From the IMG/VR virus record IMGVR_UViG_2711768060_000007, positions 1-6,337 of that record: a stretch of DNA of 6,337 bases; one strand, 5' to 3'. Position numbers and translations under genes: made by a program. Source of the stretch: a virus (Duplodnaviria > Heunggongvirae > Uroviricota > Caudoviricetes). The notes beneath the pieces are model-generated. The model was not told where the DNA came from. It ran no database searches and was given only the letters and a program-made list of their open reading frames with translations. This document shows, in pieces, positions 1 to 6,337 of this stretch. Numbering within the stretch: position 1 is the first letter of the stretch; each line of letters opens with the position of its first letter.

Positions 1-230
1 GTGGCCGCGACGGCAACCACCGAAATCTTATTGCCGACCCGGCCCTCCTGTTTCGCCGTGAAATCCAGCGCCGTTCCCAGCAGCCACGAGCCAGCAGTAC
101 CGGAAGCGCACACACCGCCGGAGGCGCCCGGCGCAGTCCCCACCAGGCCAATCACTGCCGTGGAGATGGTCTGCACGGCAACCGTGCCTGTTGTCAGTTC
201 AATGGTTTCAACACCATGTAATCCGGACAT
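1..230 (-). CDS. contractile tail sheath protein (P2 FI-like), N-terminal part only; gene runs off the window start
   Basis: ATG at 230..228 preceded by GGGAGA (241..236 on minus) with 5-nt spacing. The first ~76 codons translate to MSGLHGVETIELTTGTVAVQTISTAVIGLVGTA..., resembling the conserved N-terminus of P2-type sheath proteins as I recall it. It sits directly downstream of the fiber assembly gene, as FI follows G in P2. Similarity fades after ~35 residues, so confidence is moderate. The + strand ORF 1..276 over the same bases translates to Pro/Thr/Ala-rich low-complexity sequence and is taken as a shadow. Confidence 0.5.
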   Translation of the reverse strand, partial: MSGLHGVETIELTTGTVAVQTISTAVIGLVGTAPGASGGVCASGTAGSWLLGTALDFTAKQEGRVGNKISVVAVAA

Positions 231-243
231 ACATTTCTCCCAT

Positions 244-265
244 AAAAAAACCGCCCTCAGGCGGT
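244..265 (-). terminator. rho-independent terminator downstream of the tail fiber assembly gene
   Basis: Plus strand 250..265 is a-ccgcc-ctca-ggcgg-t: a 5-6 bp GC-rich stem with a 4-nt loop. On the minus strand it is followed by a run of 7 T (complement of A 244..250). It lies 20-40 nt after the stop of the 285..827 gene. Confidence 0.55.
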
Positions 266-284
266 CAGATGATTAACTTCTTTT

Positions 285-827
285 TCAGGTATTTTGTGGC
301 TGCTCAGGCCAGCTAATATTGTTGTATGTGGTCTTATCCGTAATAGCGCTGAAATCCATCGCCTGCAGCGATTTCGCGTAAATGCGGTACGCTTTCAGCT
401 TCTCCCTGTCTTCGTCACTGATTAATCCCGGCAGCAGGTCTTTTTCCCACTCGCTGGTCATGATGCTGACCTGTTTTAACAGGGCATCGCGCTCATCTTC
501 CGCTTTAAGTTTGTAGTCGAAGACAAATTTATCGTCGCGGTAAAACCAGTAACCAGGCACGGTAATACGGCGATTAGCGGTAATATCAGGAACTTCAATA
601 ACACTGGCGTTACGGGGTTCAATGCCTGTCACATCCTTACCGACCCACACCACGCGCCCGTCTCCGGTGTAAACCATTTTTATGGTGTCACTGGCAAAAT
701 TCTTCTGTTCTTCATACCAGTTTTTTCCGTCTTCCGAAAAAAGCCAGGTGACACCATATTGTTTTGTCAGCTGATATTGTTCCGCGGTTTTCGGATTACC
801 CGCAGTAATATTTTTTAAATGTAACAT
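285..827 (-). CDS. G: tail fiber assembly chaperone (P2 gpG / Tfa family)
   Basis: 180-aa ORF. N-terminus MLHLKNITAGNPKTAEQYQLTKQYGVTWLFSEDGKNWYEEQKNF closely resembles P2 gpG as recalled. C-terminus ...KLKAYRIYAKSLQAMDFS...ISWPEQP matches the Tfa C-terminal pattern. Start ATG (827..825) is 2 nt after the upstream fiber stop TAA (832..830), indicating translational coupling. Confidence 0.85.
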   Translation of the reverse strand: MLHLKNITAGNPKTAEQYQLTKQYGVTWLFSEDGKNWYEEQKNFASDTIKMVYTGDGRVVWVGKDVTGIEPRNASVIEVPDITANRRITVPGYWFYRDDKFVFDYKLKAEDERDALLKQVSIMTSEWEKDLLPGLISDEDREKLKAYRIYAKSLQAMDFSAITDKTTYNNISWPEQPQNT

Positions 828-829
828 TG

Positions 830-1303
830 TTAAACACTCGCCACGTTATACCAGGTGCCATTAATCAGTTTCTGAAGCGGACGGTAATACACGCCGCCGA
901 TGTTATCTGCCGAATTACTTCCGGTTTCCTGCACATTAATACCGGATAACCCGTAGCCTGCAGGTGAGCGAAATGTCCAGGAAATTTCATTTCCCCCAGG
1001 GTTATAGAACATTTCGGAACCATAACGCACATCCTGCACGCCGCCATTTCGCTGCTGATAACGGGCATCGAAATTTCCATAGTTTGATGGGGTCATCTGT
1101 CCGTTTACAGCGAATGTGATACTGCCATCGGTATTTCTCTGGCTGTAAAAATGCCAGCCGGAATCATCACCAAGCTCTGCAACTACAGGTCGGGATGAAT
1201 TACCCCATAAATTAAACGTTGCGTTTTTCGTGGAGTTGTTGGCGCTGGATAACGTGAATTTTTTAGCATTTCCGGCCTGAATATTTTTTAACGCTATCGC
1301 CAC
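830..1303 (-). CDS. H: tail fiber protein, C-terminal (tip) portion; 3' piece of a frame-shifted P2 H-like fiber gene
   Basis: 157-aa ORF from GTG 1303: (M/V)AIALKNIQAGNAKKFTLSSANNSTKNATFNLWGNSSRPVVAELGDDSGWHFYSQRNTDGSITFAVNGQ...INGTWYNVASV, very like the P2 H C-terminus as recalled. The same frame is open upstream to a TAA at 1483..1481 and there encodes ...GYIGVQNALGGNSIAFGDNDTGIKQNGDGILDVYANGQHVFRFQNG, which is also fiber-like. The real coding extent in this frame is therefore about 830..1480. Confidence 0.75.
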   Translation of the reverse strand: MAIALKNIQAGNAKKFTLSSANNSTKNATFNLWGNSSRPVVAELGDDSGWHFYSQRNTDGSITFAVNGQMTPSNYGNFDARYQQRNGGVQDVRYGSEMFYNPGGNEISWTFRSPAGYGLSGINVQETGSNSADNIGGVYYRPLQKLINGTWYNVASV

Positions 1304-1371
1304 ACCATTCTGGAAACGAAATACATGCTGTCCATTCGCATAAACATCCAGAATGCCGTCGCCGTTTTGTT

Positions 1372-2259
1372 TTATACCTGTATCGTTATCCCCGAAAGCA
1401 ATTGAGTTTCCGCCCAGCGCGTTCTGAACGCCGATATACCCAGCGCACCATTGACCTGAGAACCGCCGCCAACAGACACTTTATGCGACATGGATATTTC
1501 ACCCGTCCGCAGATTAATAGTGAACGGTCGAAGTGGACCAATATCGCCATTCTCGCCCTGACCTTCACTGGTAGGGATAAGATGCAGGCACTCTTCCGAA
1601 CGACGAAAAATAAGGCCAAAAGCGTCGTTGAAAATCCTCAGCGCATTAACGCCACGGATTTTCAGTTCCCCGGTCATGGTGTCACCATCACGCTGAACGG
1701 CATTTTTTGCCTTGTCCACCGTGGGTTTTAATCCGAGGTTTTCAACAGCCTCATCCTTGTCTTCCACATCCGAAAGATTCTTTTTTCGTTGCAGATAGCG
1801 TCTGTCTCCGATTTCCTGAGTAATAATGGCCCTGTTCGGGTCAATTTCCACCACCACACTTTCCGCATGCGTCAGTGTCAGCACCAGTGTGATAATCACT
1901 TCTTTCACAATGGAATCCGTCTGGGCAGGCAGATACGTATCCGGATAGCGCCCGTAAGCAATCAGCGTACCTGAACGACTGCGCAGCCCCAGTTCACGCA
2001 GGATTTTTCCCGGATATTTTTTGCAGTCAATCACCACCTGACCACTGATCATCCCTTCGTCACTGCCGGCTGTGGAAAAGGGTTCACTGCCAAACGGCCC
2101 ATACAACTGCGTGACCGCCGCCATATCATCCGGTGTATCCGGCAGGTTTCCGTCACCACCGTCACCCAGTACCACATCTGACAGAACAACCGTTTTACCG
2201 GCCTGCCAGGCGGCTTCAATCTCCCTGGCCCCGGCCAGCGTCAGGACAAGTCCGGACAT
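1372..2259 (-). CDS. H: tail fiber protein, N-terminal and shaft portion; 5' piece of a frame-shifted P2 H-like fiber gene
   Basis: 295-aa ORF. ATG 2259..2257 is preceded by GAGGAGG (2270..2264) with 4-nt spacing. N-terminus MSGLVLTLAGAREIEAAWQAGKTVVLSDVVLGDGGDGNLPDTPDD...ILRELGLRSRSGTLIAYGRY and internal ...KPTVDKAKNAVQRDGDTMTGEL match conserved P2 H-type motifs. The last ~20 codons before the stop at 1374..1372 (..ISAFRTRWAETQLLSGITIQV) look like out-of-frame readthrough. Confidence 0.8.
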   Translation of the reverse strand: MSGLVLTLAGAREIEAAWQAGKTVVLSDVVLGDGGDGNLPDTPDDMAAVTQLYGPFGSEPFSTAGSDEGMISGQVVIDCKKYPGKILRELGLRSRSGTLIAYGRYPDTYLPAQTDSIVKEVIITLVLTLTHAESVVVEIDPNRAIITQEIGDRRYLQRKKNLSDVEDKDEAVENLGLKPTVDKAKNAVQRDGDTMTGELKIRGVNALRIFNDAFGLIFRRSEECLHLIPTSEGQGENGDIGPLRPFTINLRTGEISMSHKVSVGGGSQVNGALGISAFRTRWAETQLLSGITIQV

Positions 2260-2456
2260 ACAGCCTCCTCTGTGGTCAGACCAAATACACGGACAAGGCG
2301 GTCACGGAGTTCCGGGCTGACCTCTTTTTTCTCTTCATCAATGTCTCCGTCGTTAATCACCAGAACCCCGGCCCGGGCCAGTGTCTGCAGGTACGCAACG
2401 AAACAACTGTCCGTCTGGCAGAAATGAATTAACGTCTTCATCTGAACGAACGTCAT
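2241..2456 (-). CDS. hypothetical small acidic protein (71 aa), function unknown
   Basis: ATG 2456..2454 lies 2 nt after the upstream TAA (2461..2459) and has GGAG 6 nt upstream. Its stop TGA (2243..2241) overlaps the first codons of the fiber gene. It exactly fills the I-H gap with coupling at both ends. Translation: MTFVQMKTLIHFCQTDSCFVAYLQTLARAGVLVINDGDIDEEKKEVSPELRDRLVRVFGLTTEEAVCPDLS. No family recognised. The ORF track gives a longer 88-aa version from ATG 2507, which overlaps the upstream gene by 49 nt. Confidence 0.4.
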   Translation of the reverse strand: MTFVQMKTLIHFCQTDSCFVAYLQTLARAGVLVINDGDIDEEKKEVSPELRDRLVRVFGLTTEEAVCPDLS

Positions 2457-2458
2457 GG

Positions 2459-5400
2459 TTAACTCCATCCTGTCGGCAATTCGCCGTAATCGTCCAGTGC
2501 TGTGCACTGAAACAGTGTTCTTGCATGGATGACCTGCTCAGGCAGTCTGCTGATAAATGACAGCCCGTGCCCGCGCAGCTTCACACACCCTTCAAACGCG
2601 CTTCTTACATCCGTCACCGTACTGAAAAAATCCGGGCTGAAAATCGCCTCCACAATACTTTCCAGTGATACACATCTGTCAAAGAGGTGCCCGGCATCCG
2701 ATACCGCTGTACCGGAAAGCAAGCCTGTTTCCGCCTGTTTCAGTGATGTGCACTGGCTGAACGCATAGCTGAAATCCGTGGCCAGACTGTTACCGGAAAA
2801 CAGATCCGCGGGGACCACCTCCAGACGGGAACATTTCATAAACACCTTACTGAACGTGGTGACGTGCAGGTTGTGACGGAACAGCCCTGCAGGCACTGAG
2901 ACCAGTCCGGTTTCAGAAAACGCACTCAGGAAGACGGATATCAGCGGACAGGCAGCAAACAGCGACTCCGGTACGGTCTGCAGCGCTGTACATCCCGCAA
3001 AAGCACTCTCCACCGTAACCAGCAGCGGATTGTGCTCAAACACACCGGGCGGAACAGTGGTCAGTGATGTGCAGGAATAAAAAATACCCCTGGCGGTCGT
3101 CAGTTTCGTCATGGCTCCAAACAGGTCGTCCGGGAGGCTTTCCAGCGAAATGCAGCCACTGAACGTCATCCAGAGATAGGTGACTCCGGGAACATTGCCA
3201 AACAGCATCAGCGGCAGGGTGCGCAGAGCGCGGCAGTTCCTGAATACCTCCAGTAGCTCTTTAATTTCTGAGCACCCGTCAAATAAGCGGGCTCCAACAG
3301 AGCGCAGCGAGACACAGTCGACGAACAGCCCCCGGACCTGTGTCAGGGCGGTGCAGTCACTGAATACACGTTCCCCCACGCGCAGCAGACCGGAACACGC
3401 CATAAAGGCGTTATACACGTTGATGAGATTTTCAGCCCCTCTGAACGCACCGTCAGGGATCTCCGTCAGTGACTCGCAGTTACGAAATGCAGAATGAAGG
3501 GTCGTCAGCTCACGGCAGTCACCAAAATCCGGCATTACGCTCAGCACCCGGCAGTTATAAAATGCCGAAGCAAAGTCTTTTGCACCGGTACAGCCTGCCA
3601 GAAGCCCCTCTCCGGTGCTTTGCAGTGATTTATCACCGTAAAATGCGAAAGAAAAATCTCCTGCCCCCGTGCAGTTACGGAACAGATGGTCTCCGGTGGT
3701 ACGCAGCGCCGTACAGTTTCTGAACACACTGTTGAAGGTGGTGACGCTGGTCAGATTTTCAAACAGGCCATCCGGGAGGGACTGTAATGCACTGCAGTCC
3801 ATAAATGCCTCCCGGAATGTCGTTGAGCGGATGCACGGGCTGAACATCCCGGAAGGTACCGCCGTCAGTGACGTACATTTGCTGAATGTCCGGGAAAAAT
3901 CCCCGCCAGGCACATGGCTGAAGATACCTCCGGGAATGGTCGCCAGTCGACTGCAGGAATAAAACGCCTCCCTGAACTGCGTGGCACTGACACAGCCAGT
4001 AAACAGCCCCTCGCCGATACTGGTCAGTGAGGTACAGTTATAAAAAAGCCTGCCAAAATCCTTGGCCGATGTGCAGCCTGAAAACAGGTCTCGCCCCACC
4101 GTCTGCAACGCGCTGCAGCCATAAAATGCACTGTCAAACGTACCCGCGTTCTCCAGACCACGGAATAAGCCGTCAGGGACAGCTGACAGCGAGGTACAAT
4201 TACTGAAGACGCCTCTGAAACTCCGGGCCTCAGTGAAGCCGGCGAAGAGTGTGGCGGGAACCGTCTCCAGTGCGGTACAACCAGTAAACAGGCTGTAACA
4301 GTCCCGTACCCCCTGCAGTCCCTTAAAGGCGTCGTCATGTACAGTGACCAGGTTTCGCTGTCCACTGACAAACGACGCTAATGAACTCACTGTTCCCGTA
4401 TAACGAACCAGCTCCGTGACCGGATTCAGGGCGGCGGAGAACGCGTCTGCTGTGCGTTGCAGCGTGGCCTGCCCGGGGTTTTTTACGGTAATAAGATATT
4501 CGGTACCCTCCGTCAGCGGGCGTGTGGCGTATACACCATACAGCACACCGGAATTTGTACTCCTGAGCGCATACTCTCTGTTATCACCGTCACCGTAATT
4601 AATCAGGAAATCAGCGTTTTCAGGCCGGACAAAAAATAAGGGCCGGTCAGCAGACTCCACCCGGGAGACAAACGCCAGCACCGGAACCACCTTCACGCTG
4701 ACCGTGCAACTGATACCGTTGAGGGTGGTCACGGTAACCTGGCATTCTCCGTACGTCTGTCCCGTCAGTAGAAAACCGCCTTCCGCCAGGGTGGCTGTGA
4801 CACAACCAGGCTCTGCAACCCGGACAGTGAAACTTTTGTCTTCCGCCTCCGGTGGCAGGATAGTGACGCCGATAAAACGACATTCCCCGGGCTCCAGCCA
4901 GACTTCCGTTTCCGTCAGGGTGATACCGGTCGGAAAAATGCGGCTCCTTATATATTCGGTGGCACAGGCGTAACCGGCTGCATAAACCGGGCCTGCACTG
5001 CGACCATAAACGTGAACCGAAAACCATGAGCGCAGATTTTTCGCACGAAGCACCGCATGCTTCAGATCCTGATGATCATTCATCAGCACCGGTAAATCCT
5101 TCTGCTCCACGTTCAGACGAAAGGTATACGGCTCCCCGGGTGGGGTCTGCTCATACCACTCAACAATCTGCGACCGGAAGGGACTGTCAGCCAGCGATGC
5201 CATCAGCGCCGCTTTAGTCCCTCTGTGGCGGTGGATGTAAGCAGCACGTTTTATCGCAGACCTTTTTTCCGTCTCCGTCCAGTGTTCATTCCAGGTATCC
5301 ACCGCCATTTCCCAGGCCAGCCATGGCAGCAATTCAGCAGGGCATAAATCGGGATTTTTCACATAGCGGATCAGGCAGACCGCTATGTCTGACAGCATAT

Positions 5401-5476
5401 CTCCGGCGACACAGTCCACCACCCGCTCTGCCCGGCGGGCACTGACCGGCAGTATGCTCCTGATATCGTCATTCAT
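2459..5476 (-). CDS. baseplate wedge protein I (P2 gpI family) with large C-terminal extension: Ig-like domain plus ~22 BspA-type leucine-rich repeats
   Basis: Uninterrupted 1005-codon ORF. ATG 5476..5474 has GGAG 7 nt upstream and overlaps the end of the J reading frame (ATGAATGA). Residues 1-~180 (4937..5476) carry the gpI signature ...NPDLCPAELLPWLAWEMAVDTWNEHWTETEKRSAIKRAAYIHRHRGTKAAL.... Residues ~183-265 (4682..4930) look like a Big_2-type Ig fold (..FTVRVAEPGCVTATLAEGGFLLTGQTYGECQVTVTTLNGISCTVSVKV). Residues ~382-990 (2507..4333) are tandem 26-27-aa units, e.g. FSNCTSLSAVPDGLFRGLENAGTFDSA, FYGCSALQTVGRDLFSGCTSAKDFGRL, FMDCSALQSLPDGLFENLTSVTTFNSV. Confidence 0.9.
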   Translation of the reverse strand: MNDDIRSILPVSARRAERVVDCVAGDMLSDIAVCLIRYVKNPDLCPAELLPWLAWEMAVDTWNEHWTETEKRSAIKRAAYIHRHRGTKAALMASLADSPFRSQIVEWYEQTPPGEPYTFRLNVEQKDLPVLMNDHQDLKHAVLRAKNLRSWFSVHVYGRSAGPVYAAGYACATEYIRSRIFPTGITLTETEVWLEPGECRFIGVTILPPEAEDKSFTVRVAEPGCVTATLAEGGFLLTGQTYGECQVTVTTLNGISCTVSVKVVPVLAFVSRVESADRPLFFVRPENADFLINYGDGDNREYALRSTNSGVLYGVYATRPLTEGTEYLITVKNPGQATLQRTADAFSAALNPVTELVRYTGTVSSLASFVSGQRNLVTVHDDAFKGLQGVRDCYSLFTGCTALETVPATLFAGFTEARSFRGVFSNCTSLSAVPDGLFRGLENAGTFDSAFYGCSALQTVGRDLFSGCTSAKDFGRLFYNCTSLTSIGEGLFTGCVSATQFREAFYSCSRLATIPGGIFSHVPGGDFSRTFSKCTSLTAVPSGMFSPCIRSTTFREAFMDCSALQSLPDGLFENLTSVTTFNSVFRNCTALRTTGDHLFRNCTGAGDFSFAFYGDKSLQSTGEGLLAGCTGAKDFASAFYNCRVLSVMPDFGDCRELTTLHSAFRNCESLTEIPDGAFRGAENLINVYNAFMACSGLLRVGERVFSDCTALTQVRGLFVDCVSLRSVGARLFDGCSEIKELLEVFRNCRALRTLPLMLFGNVPGVTYLWMTFSGCISLESLPDDLFGAMTKLTTARGIFYSCTSLTTVPPGVFEHNPLLVTVESAFAGCTALQTVPESLFAACPLISVFLSAFSETGLVSVPAGLFRHNLHVTTFSKVFMKCSRLEVVPADLFSGNSLATDFSYAFSQCTSLKQAETGLLSGTAVSDAGHLFDRCVSLESIVEAIFSPDFFSTVTDVRSAFEGCVKLRGHGLSFISRLPEQVIHARTLFQCTALDDYGELPTGWS
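2507..4333 (-). repeat. in-frame tandem coding repeats (~78-81 nt period, ~22 units) encoding BspA-type leucine-rich repeats
   Basis: Protein-level periodicity F-x-x-C-x-x-L-x-x-[VI]-[PG]-x-x-L-F-(x)8-F-x-x-A, repeated about 22 times. Related motifs recur on the plus strand at roughly 80-nt multiples: gaacagccc near 2879 and 3323, aaacaggcc at 3761, aaacagcccc at 4001, aaacaggtc at 4082 (4081 begins aaaacaggtc), ggaataagcc at 4162. Units are diverged, not identical. Confidence 0.7.
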
Positions 5477-5575
5477 CGGTTGTCTCCACCTTATTCAGCG
5501 TTACCCTACGGCACCACGGTGCCTGCCCCATCGCAGGAACGATATCACTGGCTGGTGAGGTCAGATTCACCGTAA

Positions 5576-6268
5576 TCACCCCGGTCTGGTGCAGAGCACC
5601 ATAATATCCGCCACCACATCGTAGGGAATAATTTCTGCCGTCCGGACACTGACAAAATCCGTCAGGGGACGGGTTTCATCATCACAGACTGATGCTGCCA
5701 CCTTATCCAGCAGGGGTTGTGATGCAGTGCCATTTCCGGACCGGGATAACACATAAAGAAAAACCCGGCCTTCCTGCGAATGTGTTTCCGGCCCGTAAGC
5801 CTTCACATCCAGCACATCAGGATCAGCACTTTGTGCAAAATAGTGATACGCATTTTTCGCGCCGGCGGTGCTGAGCCGTGCCCATGACAACTGGATACGT
5901 TCGCGAAAAGCGTCATCATCTTCATACACCGCCGGCGTGGGCGGAATGGTGCTGTCGTCTGCCGGGGTAATAACCAGCCGCTGAACCTGATAATTCGCGC
6001 CAACCTGATCCAGGTCGTTCCCACCGGCACTGGCAAGCAGTACAGCACGGACAGCATCATTGATCTGCTGGCGCATCAGCGCCACCCGATAAGCCAGCGC
6101 CTCTGCCCATTTATATGCGGGATCAGATTCCACCAGAGCCGAAAACAACGTATCCAGCTCCTGATACTTCGCCACTATCTGAGTGACCAGCACAGCGGTG
6201 TCCGGCACATCCACTACATCCGGTACAGGTATCGCGGACAAATCAATAATGGCCTGAGACGTTGCCAA
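5576..6268 (-). CDS. J: baseplate assembly protein J (P2 gpJ family); ORF ends early, apparent frameshift near the 3' end
   Basis: 230-aa ORF from TTG 6268..6266, with GAGGAG 7 nt upstream and an in-frame TAA two codons before. Translation (M)ATSQAIIDLSAIPVPDVV...NDAVRAVLLASAGGNDLDQVGANYQVQRLVITPADDSTIPPTPAV... matches P2 gpJ motifs as recalled (IIDL..LP.PDVV; RAV.LA.AAGNDLD; L.ITPADDSTIPPTPAV). Stop TGA is at 5578..5576. The adjacent frame over 5469..5579 encodes VITVNLTSPASDIVPAMGQAPWCRRVTLNKVETTDE and ends overlapping the gene I start, which looks like the true J C-terminus. Confidence 0.8.
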   Translation of the reverse strand: MATSQAIIDLSAIPVPDVVDVPDTAVLVTQIVAKYQELDTLFSALVESDPAYKWAEALAYRVALMRQQINDAVRAVLLASAGGNDLDQVGANYQVQRLVITPADDSTIPPTPAVYEDDDAFRERIQLSWARLSTAGAKNAYHYFAQSADPDVLDVKAYGPETHSQEGRVFLYVLSRSGNGTASQPLLDKVAASVCDDETRPLTDFVSVRTAEIIPYDVVADIMVLCTRPG

Positions 6269-6337
6269 TTTTTATCTCCTCGAGTCGAATCGTTTCCTGA
6301 GTTTCGTTATTCACCCCGACAAGCGTCAGCCAGGCGC

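What the first reader, a model, noticed from the sequence alone, without database searches (positions are those of the whole stretch)
1..6337. Two broken structural genes flank an intact 3-kb repeat gene: decaying prophage or homopolymer errors
J and H both carry single-base frame losses at short G runs, while the longest and most repetitive gene in the window (1005 codons) is fully open, and tight coupling between genes is preserved. If the frameshifts are real, the tail module is probably non-functional and the intact LRR gene may be kept for a host-beneficial role, for example as an adhesin or part of a tailocin-like particle. If they are homopolymer sequencing errors, this is a complete P2-like tail with an unusual baseplate appendage. 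The two readings imply different biology.
Basis: inference. Interest (0 to 1): 0.45.

Follow-up and report, generated by a model that had tools for sequence, protein, structure and literature searches.

The report
Phage tail genes with two private breaks
This E. coli contig is the baseplate and tail-fibre block of a P2-type phage tail; its two broken genes carry a 115-bp deletion and a 2-bp insertion found in no sibling genome, so they are an assembly fault or very fresh damage, and the large intact repeat gene is the normal, little-studied long form of baseplate protein I.

Summary
The window is the whole 6,337-bp contig CXYG01000049.1 of E. coli draft assembly GCA_001269325.1. All genes are on the minus strand: W (end), J, I, a 71-aa ORF, H, a tail-fibre assembly gene and the sheath start.

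J and H are broken, but not by single-base losses at G runs. J lacks 115 bp at 5603|5602. H has an extra TA within TATA 1435-1438.

More than ten sibling E. coli loci (99.2-99.95% identical) carry intact J (304 aa) and H (475, 461 or 419 aa), beside full head and tail genes. Compared with 11 sibling loci, the window has no private substitution. Its only private differences are the two indels.

This excludes homopolymer error and argues against slow decay. The 1005-codon gene needs no special retention: two random hits miss it 27% of the time.

I lean 60:35 towards blunt assembly-join artefacts over genuine very recent lesions. Only the reads can settle this.

The 1005-aa protein is P2 gpI (the baseplate subunit where the fibre docks), extended by an Ig-like domain, a second β domain and about 24 BspA/PARCEL-type 27-residue repeats. 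Long forms of gpI (614-1049 aa, most with such repeats) occur in Klebsiella, E. coli and Salmonella prophages, annotated only as "tail protein I". It is probably a second adhesion or receptor-binding appendage.

The parts
6243..6335 (-). 3' end of the gpW/gp25-like baseplate gene (last 30 codons); the contig starts inside it
   Evidence: Translation. Siblings have a 118-aa PF04965 GPW_gp25 gene at this position.
5576..6268 (-). Baseplate gene J (gp6-like triplex subunit), truncated: native aa 1-222, then 8 out-of-frame aa and TGA. TTG start as annotated in RefSeq relatives.
   Evidence: Pfam Baseplate_J 70.5 bits. Siblings encode 304 aa. Codon table.
5602..5603 (-). Junction of the 115-bp deletion in J (J nt 667-781 missing). 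Blunt, with no microhomology.
   Evidence: All 10 siblings that cover the site have the 115 bp.
5469..5600 (-). Stranded 3' remnant of J, now out of frame. It still reads GALHQTG...TTDE* and overlaps the I start by 8 nt.
2459..5476 (-). Long gpI: 1005-aa 'phage tail protein I' (WP_064759507.1), intact
   Evidence: The identical protein is found in intact prophages L002 and L003.
4946..5476 (-). gpI core (aa 1-177), the baseplate triplex/fibre-docking subunit. DNA homology to short-gpI prophages ends at about 5004.
   Evidence: PF09684 116.7 bits, TIGR01634 91.6 bits. BLAST boundary. Weak Foldseek hit to pyocin R2 baseplate chain 6u5b_0, from a low-confidence part of the model.
4682..4945 (-). 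Big_2 Ig-like domain (aa ~178-265)
   Evidence: AF2 pLDDT about 90. Foldseek hits to lambda gpV Ig domain 2l04 and Big_2-CBM56. phrog_215, phrog_41 and phrog_341 Ig-domain matches. PF02368 in homologues.
4397..4681 (-). Second β-rich domain (aa ~266-360), no family assigned
   Evidence: AF2 strands 266-359 at high confidence.
2462..4396 (-). BspA/PARCEL-type LRR solenoid (aa ~361-1005), about 24 units of 27 aa, F..C..L..vP.gLF
   Evidence: Repeat parsing. PF13306 44.1 bits and TIGR02167 42.2 bits. AF2 pLDDT above 90. Foldseek hits 4fs7, 4gt6 and TLR ectodomains.
2241..2456 (-). 71-aa ORF of unknown function, coupled between I and H (phrog_11426)
1372..2259 (-). Tail-fibre gene H, 5' fragment: collar domain, native to about aa 275, then 20 aberrant aa
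   Evidence: PF12571 54.6 bits.
1435..1438 (-). TATA where siblings have TA: the +2 insertion that splits H. It lies next to the unchanged GGG at 1439-1441.
   Evidence: Absent from 9 of 9 siblings that cover the site.
830..1434 (-). Tail-fibre gene H, distal (receptor-binding) part, displaced into another frame. The 157-aa ORF 1303..830 is its tail end.
   Evidence: Removing TA restores a 475-aa H, the length of the sibling H. phrog_6859 and phrog_454 tail fibre.
285..827 (-). Tail-fibre assembly protein (gpG/U-like, 180 aa), intact
   Evidence: PF02413 82.9 bits. The identical protein is in 17 contigs.
249..266 (-). Intrinsic terminator-like hairpin plus T run, at the end of the baseplate/fibre operon
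   Evidence: Top terminator-like site; sequence.
3..230 (-). First 76 codons of the tail sheath gene; the contig ends inside it
   Evidence: Siblings have a 491-aa sheath here.

Best explanation
The window is the baseplate/tail-fibre operon (W-J-I-orf71-H-tfa, then a terminator and the sheath start) of a temperate E. coli phage. The phage combines a lambda-like head with a P2-type contractile tail.

In this phage family the module is intact and mobile. The two breaks are private to this one draft contig. They are a blunt 115-bp loss in J and a duplicated TA in H. No private base substitution accompanies them.

My preferred reading (inference, about 60%) is that the 6.3-kb contig was stitched from three pieces of 735, about 4,165 and about 1,435 bp, and that both lesions are join errors. 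One join dropped 115 bp. The other abutted two ends that truly overlap by TA. On this reading the underlying prophage has a complete tail. If the lesions are instead real (about 35%), they are very recent and cripple the virion.

On either reading the intact 3-kb gene is not a domesticated survivor. It is the ordinary long allele of baseplate protein I. Its N-terminal gpI core (aa 1-177) would enter the (J)2-I triplex of the baseplate wedge, where the fibre docks. Its C-terminal Ig-like domain, β domain and about 24-repeat BspA/PARCEL LRR solenoid would project from the six wedges. There they would act as an extra adhesion or receptor-binding appendage beside fibre H.

Shown: gene identities, the nature of the lesions, their privacy, the domain architecture and the distribution of the family. 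Inferred: the artefact mechanism, the placement of the extension and its binding role.
For: Identity and context:
- The window equals NCBI contig CXYG01000049.1 of GCA_001269325.1.
- Sibling loci L002, L003, L005 and L007-L014 (L008 is the same contig as L002), and further contigs, have J of 304 aa, the same I of 1005 aa, orf71 and, wherever the contig reaches that far, a full-length H of 475, 461 or 419 aa. tfa, sheath, tube, tape-measure, U, X and D follow where the contig extends, and terminase, portal and capsid genes lie upstream.
- The same tail module sits behind two different head modules and next to at least three different host flanks (ZinT; Ni_hydr_CYTB; DinI/SmpB). This is a mosaic, mobile phage family.

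Lesions:
- The 115-bp deletion and the TA insertion are defined.
- In a multiple alignment with 11 sibling loci, the window's only private differences are these two indels. It has no private substitution in 6,337 bp.
- The truncated J and the H fragments exist in no other contig of the 153-billion-gene index, Logan read assemblies included.
- The deletion junction has no microhomology. By my own knowledge that is atypical for E. coli, which lacks end-joining. The H lesion is exactly a duplicated 2-bp overlap.
- The contig is short and ends inside the conserved W and sheath genes. Related prophages occur at up to 6 places per E. coli genome.

gpI-LRR:
- PF09684 and TIGR01634 are well above threshold, and the LRR_5 and PARCEL repeat models also match.
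- The AF2 model has pLDDT 85.6, with residues 180-1005 mostly above 90.
- Folds match BspA-like LRRs, the lambda gpV Ig domain and many phage BspA-type LRR proteins. A match of the low-confidence N-terminal part to a pyocin R2 baseplate chain is weak (E 6.8e-3).
- Homologues of 614-1049 aa annotated 'phage tail protein I' occur in Klebsiella (clusters of 1,551 and 877 sequences), E. coli, E. albertii, Salmonella and Trabulsiella. They also occur in deposited Peduoviridae genomes with the same J-I-orf70-H order.
- In phage E217 the triplex is two J-like subunits plus one I-like subunit, and the fibre docks on the I-like subunit (PMC10329688).
Against: No reads or other contigs of GCA_001269325.1 were available, so the join-artefact mechanism is untested. 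I found no long repeat at either lesion that would explain a de Bruijn-graph misjoin, and I do not know which assembler or gap-closer was used (nothing found). The contig is reported in 2 samples. If the second is an independent isolate rather than the RefSeq twin, the lesions would be reproducible and probably real.

For gpI-LRR, the N-terminal core is modelled at low confidence (pLDDT about 45). No structure or experiment places the extension on a virion, and no ligand is known. Among close E. coli alleles the LRR is nearly invariant, which is unlike the fast-evolving tip of a typical host-range determinant.
Confidence: 0.55

Rival explanations
1. Both lesions are genuine, very recent mutations in this isolate. 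The prophage has just lost the ability to build infectious tails. J lacks its last 82 residues and no longer ends at the I start, so coupling to I is lost. H lacks its receptor-binding half. The rest of the module has not yet diverged.
For: Both lesions sit in clean sequence that otherwise matches the siblings base for base, with no chimeric SNP pattern around them. By my own knowledge, Illumina-era assemblies rarely invent a TA insertion or a 115-bp loss. No repeat is present that would explain a graph misassembly. Imperfect repeats (ATTCCCTACG, TGGATGGTG) lie near the J deletion. The contig is recorded in 2 samples. Prophage structural genes are common pseudogenes.
Against: There are two indels of rare types and no private substitution in 6.3 kb. 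With base substitutions about ten times more frequent than indels in E. coli (my own knowledge), the chance that the first two events are both indels is about 1%. No selection is apparent that would hit two tail genes. The deletion junction has no microhomology. The truncated products are seen in no read-based (Logan) assembly.
Confidence: 0.35
2. First reader's reading 1. This is an old, decaying (cryptic) prophage or tailocin-like remnant, in which the LRR gene is kept open by selection for a host-beneficial role such as adhesion.
For: Two structural genes are broken while the longest gene is open. BspA-type LRR proteins are adhesins in other bacteria (family names).
Against: The lesions are absent from every sibling, and the window has no private substitutions. 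The same LRR protein, identical in sequence, sits in intact prophages with full head and tail genes. It has no export signal, only a gpI baseplate core at the N terminus. It lies inside the late baseplate operon with translational coupling. The gene fills 47.6% of the window, so two random hits miss it 27% of the time. Head genes beside the module in siblings argue against a tailocin.
Confidence: 0.05
3. First reader's reading 2. Both frameshifts are single-base homopolymer sequencing errors at short G runs.
For: G runs lie at 1439-1441 and 5579-5582. In frame terms, +2 is equivalent to -1.
Against: Both G runs have the same length in all siblings. The real differences are a 115-bp deletion 20 nt upstream of the GGGG, and a TA dinucleotide next to the GGG.
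Confidence: 0.02

Closest known systems
Phage P2 gpI / T4 gp7-like triplex subunit of contractile-tail baseplates (E217 gp45, and the pyocin R2 baseplate chain hit weakly)
   Same: The N-terminal 177 aa match PF09684 and TIGR01634. The gene lies directly after J, with an overlap, and before fibre gene H. In E217 the homologous subunit is where the fibre docks.
   Different: P2-type gpI is about 176-196 aa (196 aa in L001). This one is 1005 aa, with an Ig-like domain, a β domain and an LRR solenoid appended. None of the papers my four topic searches returned describes such an extension.
Tail protein I of Klebsiella phage ST16-OXA48phi5.4 (NC_049450, YP_009882546.1, Peduoviridae, Reipivirus) and Kp48xx-1 prophages
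   Same: Same architecture (1008 aa), 43% identity over 99% of the length. Same J - I - 70-aa ORF - tail collar fibre order. The small ORF is 48% identical.
   Different: Different host genus. That record is a classical P2-like 38-kb genome, whereas the E. coli siblings pair the tail with lambda-like heads. Function is uncharacterised there too.
BspA-like / PARCEL (DUF285, TIGR02167) leucine-rich repeat surface proteins, e.g. BACOVA_04585 (PDB 4fs7) and FAEPRAA2165_01021 (4gt6)
   Same: Same repeat family and solenoid fold. The nearest non-phage sequence relatives are BACON-domain LRR proteins from gut metagenomes, one of them named as Alistipes (27-31% identity).
   Different: Those are cell-surface proteins. 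Here the repeats are fused to a virion baseplate subunit. The units are 27 aa.
Ig-like (Big_2) decorations on phage structural proteins, e.g. the lambda gpV C-terminal domain (PDB 2l04)
   Same: Residues ~178-265 match this fold and Ig-domain PHROGs.
   Different: Here the Ig domain is a linker between a baseplate core and a long LRR, not a tube or capsid decoration.
Defective (cryptic) prophages of E. coli
   Same: Interrupted structural genes in a prophage context.
   Different: The lesions are not shared by any relative, there is no accompanying substitution load, and siblings are complete.

Membership tests
P2 gpI (Tail_P2_I, PF09684 / TIGR01634) | Profile match above the curated threshold | tested here: met
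   PF09684 116.7 bits against a cutoff of 20.6, aa 9-149 covering the whole profile. TIGR01634 91.6 bits against 30.05.
P2 gpI (Tail_P2_I, PF09684 / TIGR01634) | Gene immediately downstream of baseplate J and upstream of tail fibre H in the baseplate operon | tested here: met
   Order W-J-I-(orf71)-H-tfa in the window and all siblings. The J stop overlaps the I start by 8 nt.
P2 gpI (Tail_P2_I, PF09684 / TIGR01634) | Small single-domain protein of about 176-200 aa | tested here: not met
   1005 aa, against 196 aa in the related prophage L001. It is therefore an extended variant rather than a canonical gpI.
P2 gpI (Tail_P2_I, PF09684 / TIGR01634) | Physical subunit of the baseplate wedge triplex with two copies of J | not testable with these tools
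   Only inferred from homology and from E217. The AF2 model of the core alone has low confidence.
BspA / PARCEL leucine-rich repeat proteins (PF13306, TIGR02167) | Repeat profile matches above threshold | tested here: met
   PF13306 44.1 bits against 27.7; PF13855 34.9 against 27; TIGR02167 42.2 against 30.
BspA / PARCEL leucine-rich repeat proteins (PF13306, TIGR02167) | Curved or solenoid LRR fold | tested here: met
   AF2 pLDDT above 90 for residues 360-1005, with one short strand per 27 aa. Foldseek hits 4fs7 at 1.4e-9, 4gt6 and TLRs.
BspA / PARCEL leucine-rich repeat proteins (PF13306, TIGR02167) | Exported cell-surface protein (signal peptide or anchor) | tested here: not met
   The N terminus is the gpI core, with no leader. 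No dedicated signal-peptide predictor was run.
Decaying / cryptic prophage | Inactivating lesions in structural genes | tested here: met
   J and H are interrupted in this contig.
Decaying / cryptic prophage | Lesions inherited, that is shared with related strains, and accompanied by accumulated substitutions | tested here: not met
   None of the sibling loci that cover each site carries either lesion (10 for J, 9 for H). The window has no private substitutions.
Decaying / cryptic prophage | Loss or disruption of other modules (head, lysis, integrase) | not testable with these tools
R-type tailocin | Contractile-tail gene cluster without head and packaging genes | tested here: not met
   Siblings with the same module have terminase, portal, protease/capsid and decoration genes directly upstream. 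The window itself cannot show this.
Homopolymer sequencing error | Length change of ±1 base in a run of identical bases | tested here: not met
   The G runs are unchanged. The lesions are -115 bp and +TA.

The most novel reading that the evidence does not exclude
The long gpI is a second specificity device carried on the baseplate. A BspA/PARCEL-type LRR cassette, whose nearest non-phage relatives are BACON-domain LRR proteins from gut metagenomes, is fused through an Ig-like linker to the fibre-docking subunit of P2-type tails. It would give six extra binding arms per virion. These arms might hold temperate enterobacterial phages to a conserved ligand rather than to the strain-specific receptor read by fibre H. 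Candidate ligands are host mucosal glycans or matrix, or a conserved envelope component. The near-invariance of the LRR among E. coli alleles, while the gpI core and the H tip are swapped, would fit a conserved ligand.
Probability: 0.15. Interest if true: 0.6.

Novelty: new variant of a known kind. Interest (0 to 1): 0.27.

Why it matters
As posed (decay versus sequencing error), the finding has little biological consequence. It is one draft contig with two private indels in an otherwise intact, widely shared phage tail module. The lesson is practical: frame breaks in short prophage contigs should be checked against sibling loci before they are read as pseudogenisation.

The worthwhile residue is the long gpI. 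Several thousand database sequences from Klebsiella, E. coli and Salmonella prophages carry an Ig-like domain, in most cases followed by an LRR, on the baseplate subunit where the fibre docks. They are annotated only as 'tail protein I', and I found no published study of them. If the extension is an adhesion or receptor-binding module, it bears on host-range prediction and on engineering P2-like phages and R-type tailocins against Klebsiella and E. coli.

Tried and rejected
1. De Bruijn-graph repeat collapse as the cause of the 115-bp loss. I searched the flanks of the deletion in the intact sibling. I found only a 9-bp repeat (TGGATGGTG) that does not sit at the junction, and no microhomology. 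A simple repeat collapse is therefore not supported.

2. Chimeric assembly with a paralogous short-gpI prophage. The window matches the LRR-type siblings on both sides of each lesion, with no foreign SNP pattern. Rejected.

3. Read-level support through independent Logan assemblies. The truncated J and the H fragments occur in no Logan contig, but I could not identify a Logan assembly of this isolate. Inconclusive.

4. Looking up the assembly or sequencing method in the literature found nothing.

5. Programmed frameshift, phase variation or an invertible fibre segment as explanations for the split H. Siblings at 99.9% identity have one continuous H, and (TA)2 is too short for a phase-variable tract. 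Rejected.

6. DNA-level tandem repeats in the LRR gene: none.

7. Rfam families: none in the window.

8. The 71-aa ORF. The word-indexed search found only the query itself. The exhaustive HMMER search found 8 clusters. The AF2 model is confident, but Foldseek found no PDB match. It is absent beside the 614-aa and 861-aa long gpI alleles. Its function remains unknown.

9. Four literature searches for LRR-bearing gpI or baseplate proteins gave nothing relevant. One search gave general triplex biology only.

I reran it without that sequence.

Full report
**What the window is.** The 6,337-bp window is the reverse complement of the complete contig CXYG01000049.1 of E. coli draft assembly GCA_001269325.1. 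All genes are on the minus strand:
- the last 30 codons of a gpW/gp25-like gene (6335..6243);
- baseplate gene J (6268..5576);
- a 1005-codon gene whose N terminus is P2 gpI (5476..2459);
- a 71-codon ORF (2456..2241);
- tail-fibre gene H, in two pieces (2259..1372 and 1303..830);
- a tail-fibre assembly gene (827..285);
- a terminator-like hairpin (266..249);
- the first 76 codons of the sheath gene (230..3).

W and J overlap. The original J stop overlaps the I start by 8 nt. A 2-nt spacer separates I from orf71. orf71 overlaps H by 19 nt. A 2-nt spacer separates H from tfa.

**Checking the observation.**
- J: I aligned the window to a related prophage in a complete E. coli genome (L001, NZ_LR778141) and to much closer siblings. 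J lacks 115 bp (J nt 667-781) between window 5603 and 5602.
- The protein is native to residue 222, followed by 8 out-of-frame residues and TGA at 5578-5576. The downstream remnant (5600..5469) still encodes the J C terminus in another frame.
- The GGGG at 5579-5582 is unchanged. It is simply where the shifted frame stops.
- H: the GGG at 1439-1441 is unchanged. The adjacent sequence reads TATA (1438-1435) where every relative has TA.
- Removing one TA restores a 475-aa H.

The large gene is repetitive only at the protein level, with about 24 units of 27 residues. Tandem Repeats Finder finds no DNA array in it.

**Sibling genomes.**
- Exact-sequence look-ups of the window's own proteins found the identical 1005-aa protein, orf71 and tfa in many other E. 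coli assemblies.
- Where the contig reaches that far, these loci have J of 304 aa and a continuous H of 475, 461 or 419 aa. Sheath, tube, chaperone, tape-measure, U, X and D genes follow where the contig extends, with terminase, portal, protease/capsid and decoration genes upstream.
- The same tail module is joined to two different lambda-like head modules and lies next to at least three different host flanks. This is a mosaic, mobile phage family, not a tailocin.
- BLAST of the window against 11 sibling loci gives 99.2-99.95% identity. Every locus that covers the sites has the 115 bp and lacks the extra TA.
- In a multiple alignment the window's only private differences are those two indels. 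It has no private substitution in 6,337 bp.
- The truncated J and the two H fragments occur in no other contig of the index.

- Homopolymer error is excluded for both sites.
- Slow decay, with the LRR gene preserved by selection, is not supported. The lesions are private and there is no substitution load. The same LRR protein sits in intact prophages. It has a baseplate core rather than an export signal at its N terminus. A gene that fills 47.6% of the window escapes two random hits 27% of the time.

**Real or artefact?** I could not reach the reads, the other contigs or the assembly method, so this part is inference.
- Against genuine mutation: two indels of uncommon types with no substitution. 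With substitutions roughly ten times more frequent than indels in E. coli (my own knowledge), the chance is about 1%. The deletion junction is blunt, with no microhomology, in an organism without end-joining. I see no selection that would hit two tail genes.
- Against artefact: there is no repeat that would explain a graph misjoin, the flanking sequence is clean, and the contig is recorded in two samples.
- One mechanism explains everything at once: blunt concatenation of three assembly pieces. One join loses 115 bp. The other duplicates a true 2-bp overlap (TA|TA). This also fits a very short contig that ends inside the conserved W and sheath genes, in a species where related prophages occur at up to six places per genome.
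- I therefore lean about 60% join artefact and about 35% genuine, very recent lesions.
- If the lesions are real, the prophage cannot make infectious tails. J would lack its last 82 residues and its coupling to I. H would lack its receptor-binding half.

**The intact 3-kb gene.**
- Residues 9-149 match PF09684 (116.7 bits) and TIGR01634 (91.6 bits). The remainder matches BspA-type LRR_5 and the PARCEL 26-residue repeat.
- DNA homology to short-gpI prophages (196 aa in L001) stops at about window 5004 and resumes at about 2272. The extension plus orf71 therefore replaces 97 bp of the short form.
- An AlphaFold2 model built on 30 homologues has mean pLDDT 85.6. The gpI core is poorly defined in isolation. 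Residues 180-1005 are confident: an Ig-like Big_2 domain, a second β domain and a long LRR solenoid.
- Foldseek matches BspA-like LRR proteins of Bacteroides and Faecalibacterium (4fs7, 4gt6), TLR ectodomains and the lambda gpV Ig domain. The low-confidence N-terminal part gives only a weak match to a pyocin R2 baseplate chain (E 6.8e-3). Among viral models it matches many uncharacterised phage BspA-type LRR proteins.
- In phage E217 the baseplate triplex is two J-like subunits plus one I-like subunit, and the tail fibre docks on the I-like subunit (PMC10329688).
- By homology, the window's protein should anchor through its core in the wedge and display six Ig-LRR arms at the baseplate rim beside fibre H. 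The arms would be an accessory adhesion or receptor-binding device. This placement and role are inferred, not shown.

**How new is it?**
- Homologues with the gpI core plus Big_2, with or without LRR, range from 614 to 1049 aa. They are abundant in Klebsiella (clusters of 1,551 and 877 sequences), E. coli, E. albertii, Salmonella and Trabulsiella, all named just 'phage tail protein I'.
- Fourteen deposited Klebsiella Peduoviridae or prophage records carry a 1008-aa version, 43% identical. The annotated record NC_049450 shows the same J-I-orf70-H order. The small ORF is 48% identical.
- PHROGs files both proteins under 'unknown function' (phrog_9915, phrog_11426).
- Four literature searches found no study of an LRR-bearing gpI.
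- The module is thus a database-known but functionally undescribed variant of a well-known baseplate protein.

**Verdict.** The broken-gene puzzle is ordinary, and most likely technical. The only item of wider interest is the long gpI family. Interest 0.27.

Noticed in passing
window 2241-2456 (-): A 71-aa ORF is translationally coupled between the long gpI and H. It is conserved at 48% identity at the same position in Klebsiella phage ST16-OXA48phi5.4. Only 8 clusters (at 50% identity) were found among 1.84 billion representative proteins. The AF2 model is a confident small α/β fold with no PDB match. The ORF is absent beside the 614-aa (Salmonella) and 861-aa (E. coli) long gpI alleles, so it is not an obligatory partner of the extension.
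   Followed up: partly
window 2462-5476 (-); cluster members P0001, P0121-P0133: Among E. coli alleles at least 90% identical, 62 of 105 variable positions lie in the gpI core (aa 1-200), while the LRR is almost invariant. This is the reverse of what is expected for a fast-evolving receptor-binding tip. It suggests that the Ig-LRR cassette has spread recently onto different baseplate backgrounds, or that it binds a conserved ligand.
   Followed up: partly
L002, L003, L005, L007, L009, L012 (sibling loci): The same tail module (over 99% identical) is joined to two different head modules: ClpP-capsid fusion with Phage_cement_2, or Peptidase_S49 with HDPD, Phage_cap_E and Packaging_FI. It lies next to different host genes (ZinT, Ni_hydr_CYTB, DinI/SmpB). 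This shows head-tail mosaicism and several neighbourhoods.
   Followed up: partly
window ~830-1305 versus L003/L005/L009: The distal part of H comes in at least three alleles (475, 461 and 419 aa) among otherwise near-identical modules. Part of this region does not align between the window and L003/L005. The proximal collar region (window ~1830-2259) is only about 70% identical to the short-gpI prophage L001, while the rest of H is about 99% identical. H is recombined in blocks.
   Followed up: no
window 323-1677; hit H26 (PP818812.1): A phage deposited as Actinobacillus phage vB_Apl-pPE4 (host A. pleuropneumoniae) shares 91.6% nucleotide identity with this E. coli tail-fibre and tfa region, as do phiP27 and Rac-SA53. 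That is surprising across families and may reflect a mislabelled host or contamination.
   Followed up: no
window 2462-4470 (aa 335-1004); hits H65-H80: The LRR region has weak protein similarity (about 31% identity, E 2e-10) to a 'tail protein' or hypothetical protein of 150-kb lytic E. coli phages related to Phapecoctavirus (Mt1B1_P17, anhysbys). BspA-type LRRs therefore recur in unrelated coliphage tails.
   Followed up: no
window 249-266 (-): A strong terminator-like hairpin (GACCGCC-TGAG-GGCGGTT followed by TTTTT) lies between tfa and the sheath gene. It marks the end of the baseplate/fibre operon, as I recall for P2.
   Followed up: partly
P0183 (2061 aa) and P0187 (251 aa), hits of the 71-aa ORF: Two much longer proteins contain up to three stretches similar to the 71-aa ORF (E 4e-6 and 4e-4). 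I did not examine them.
   Followed up: no
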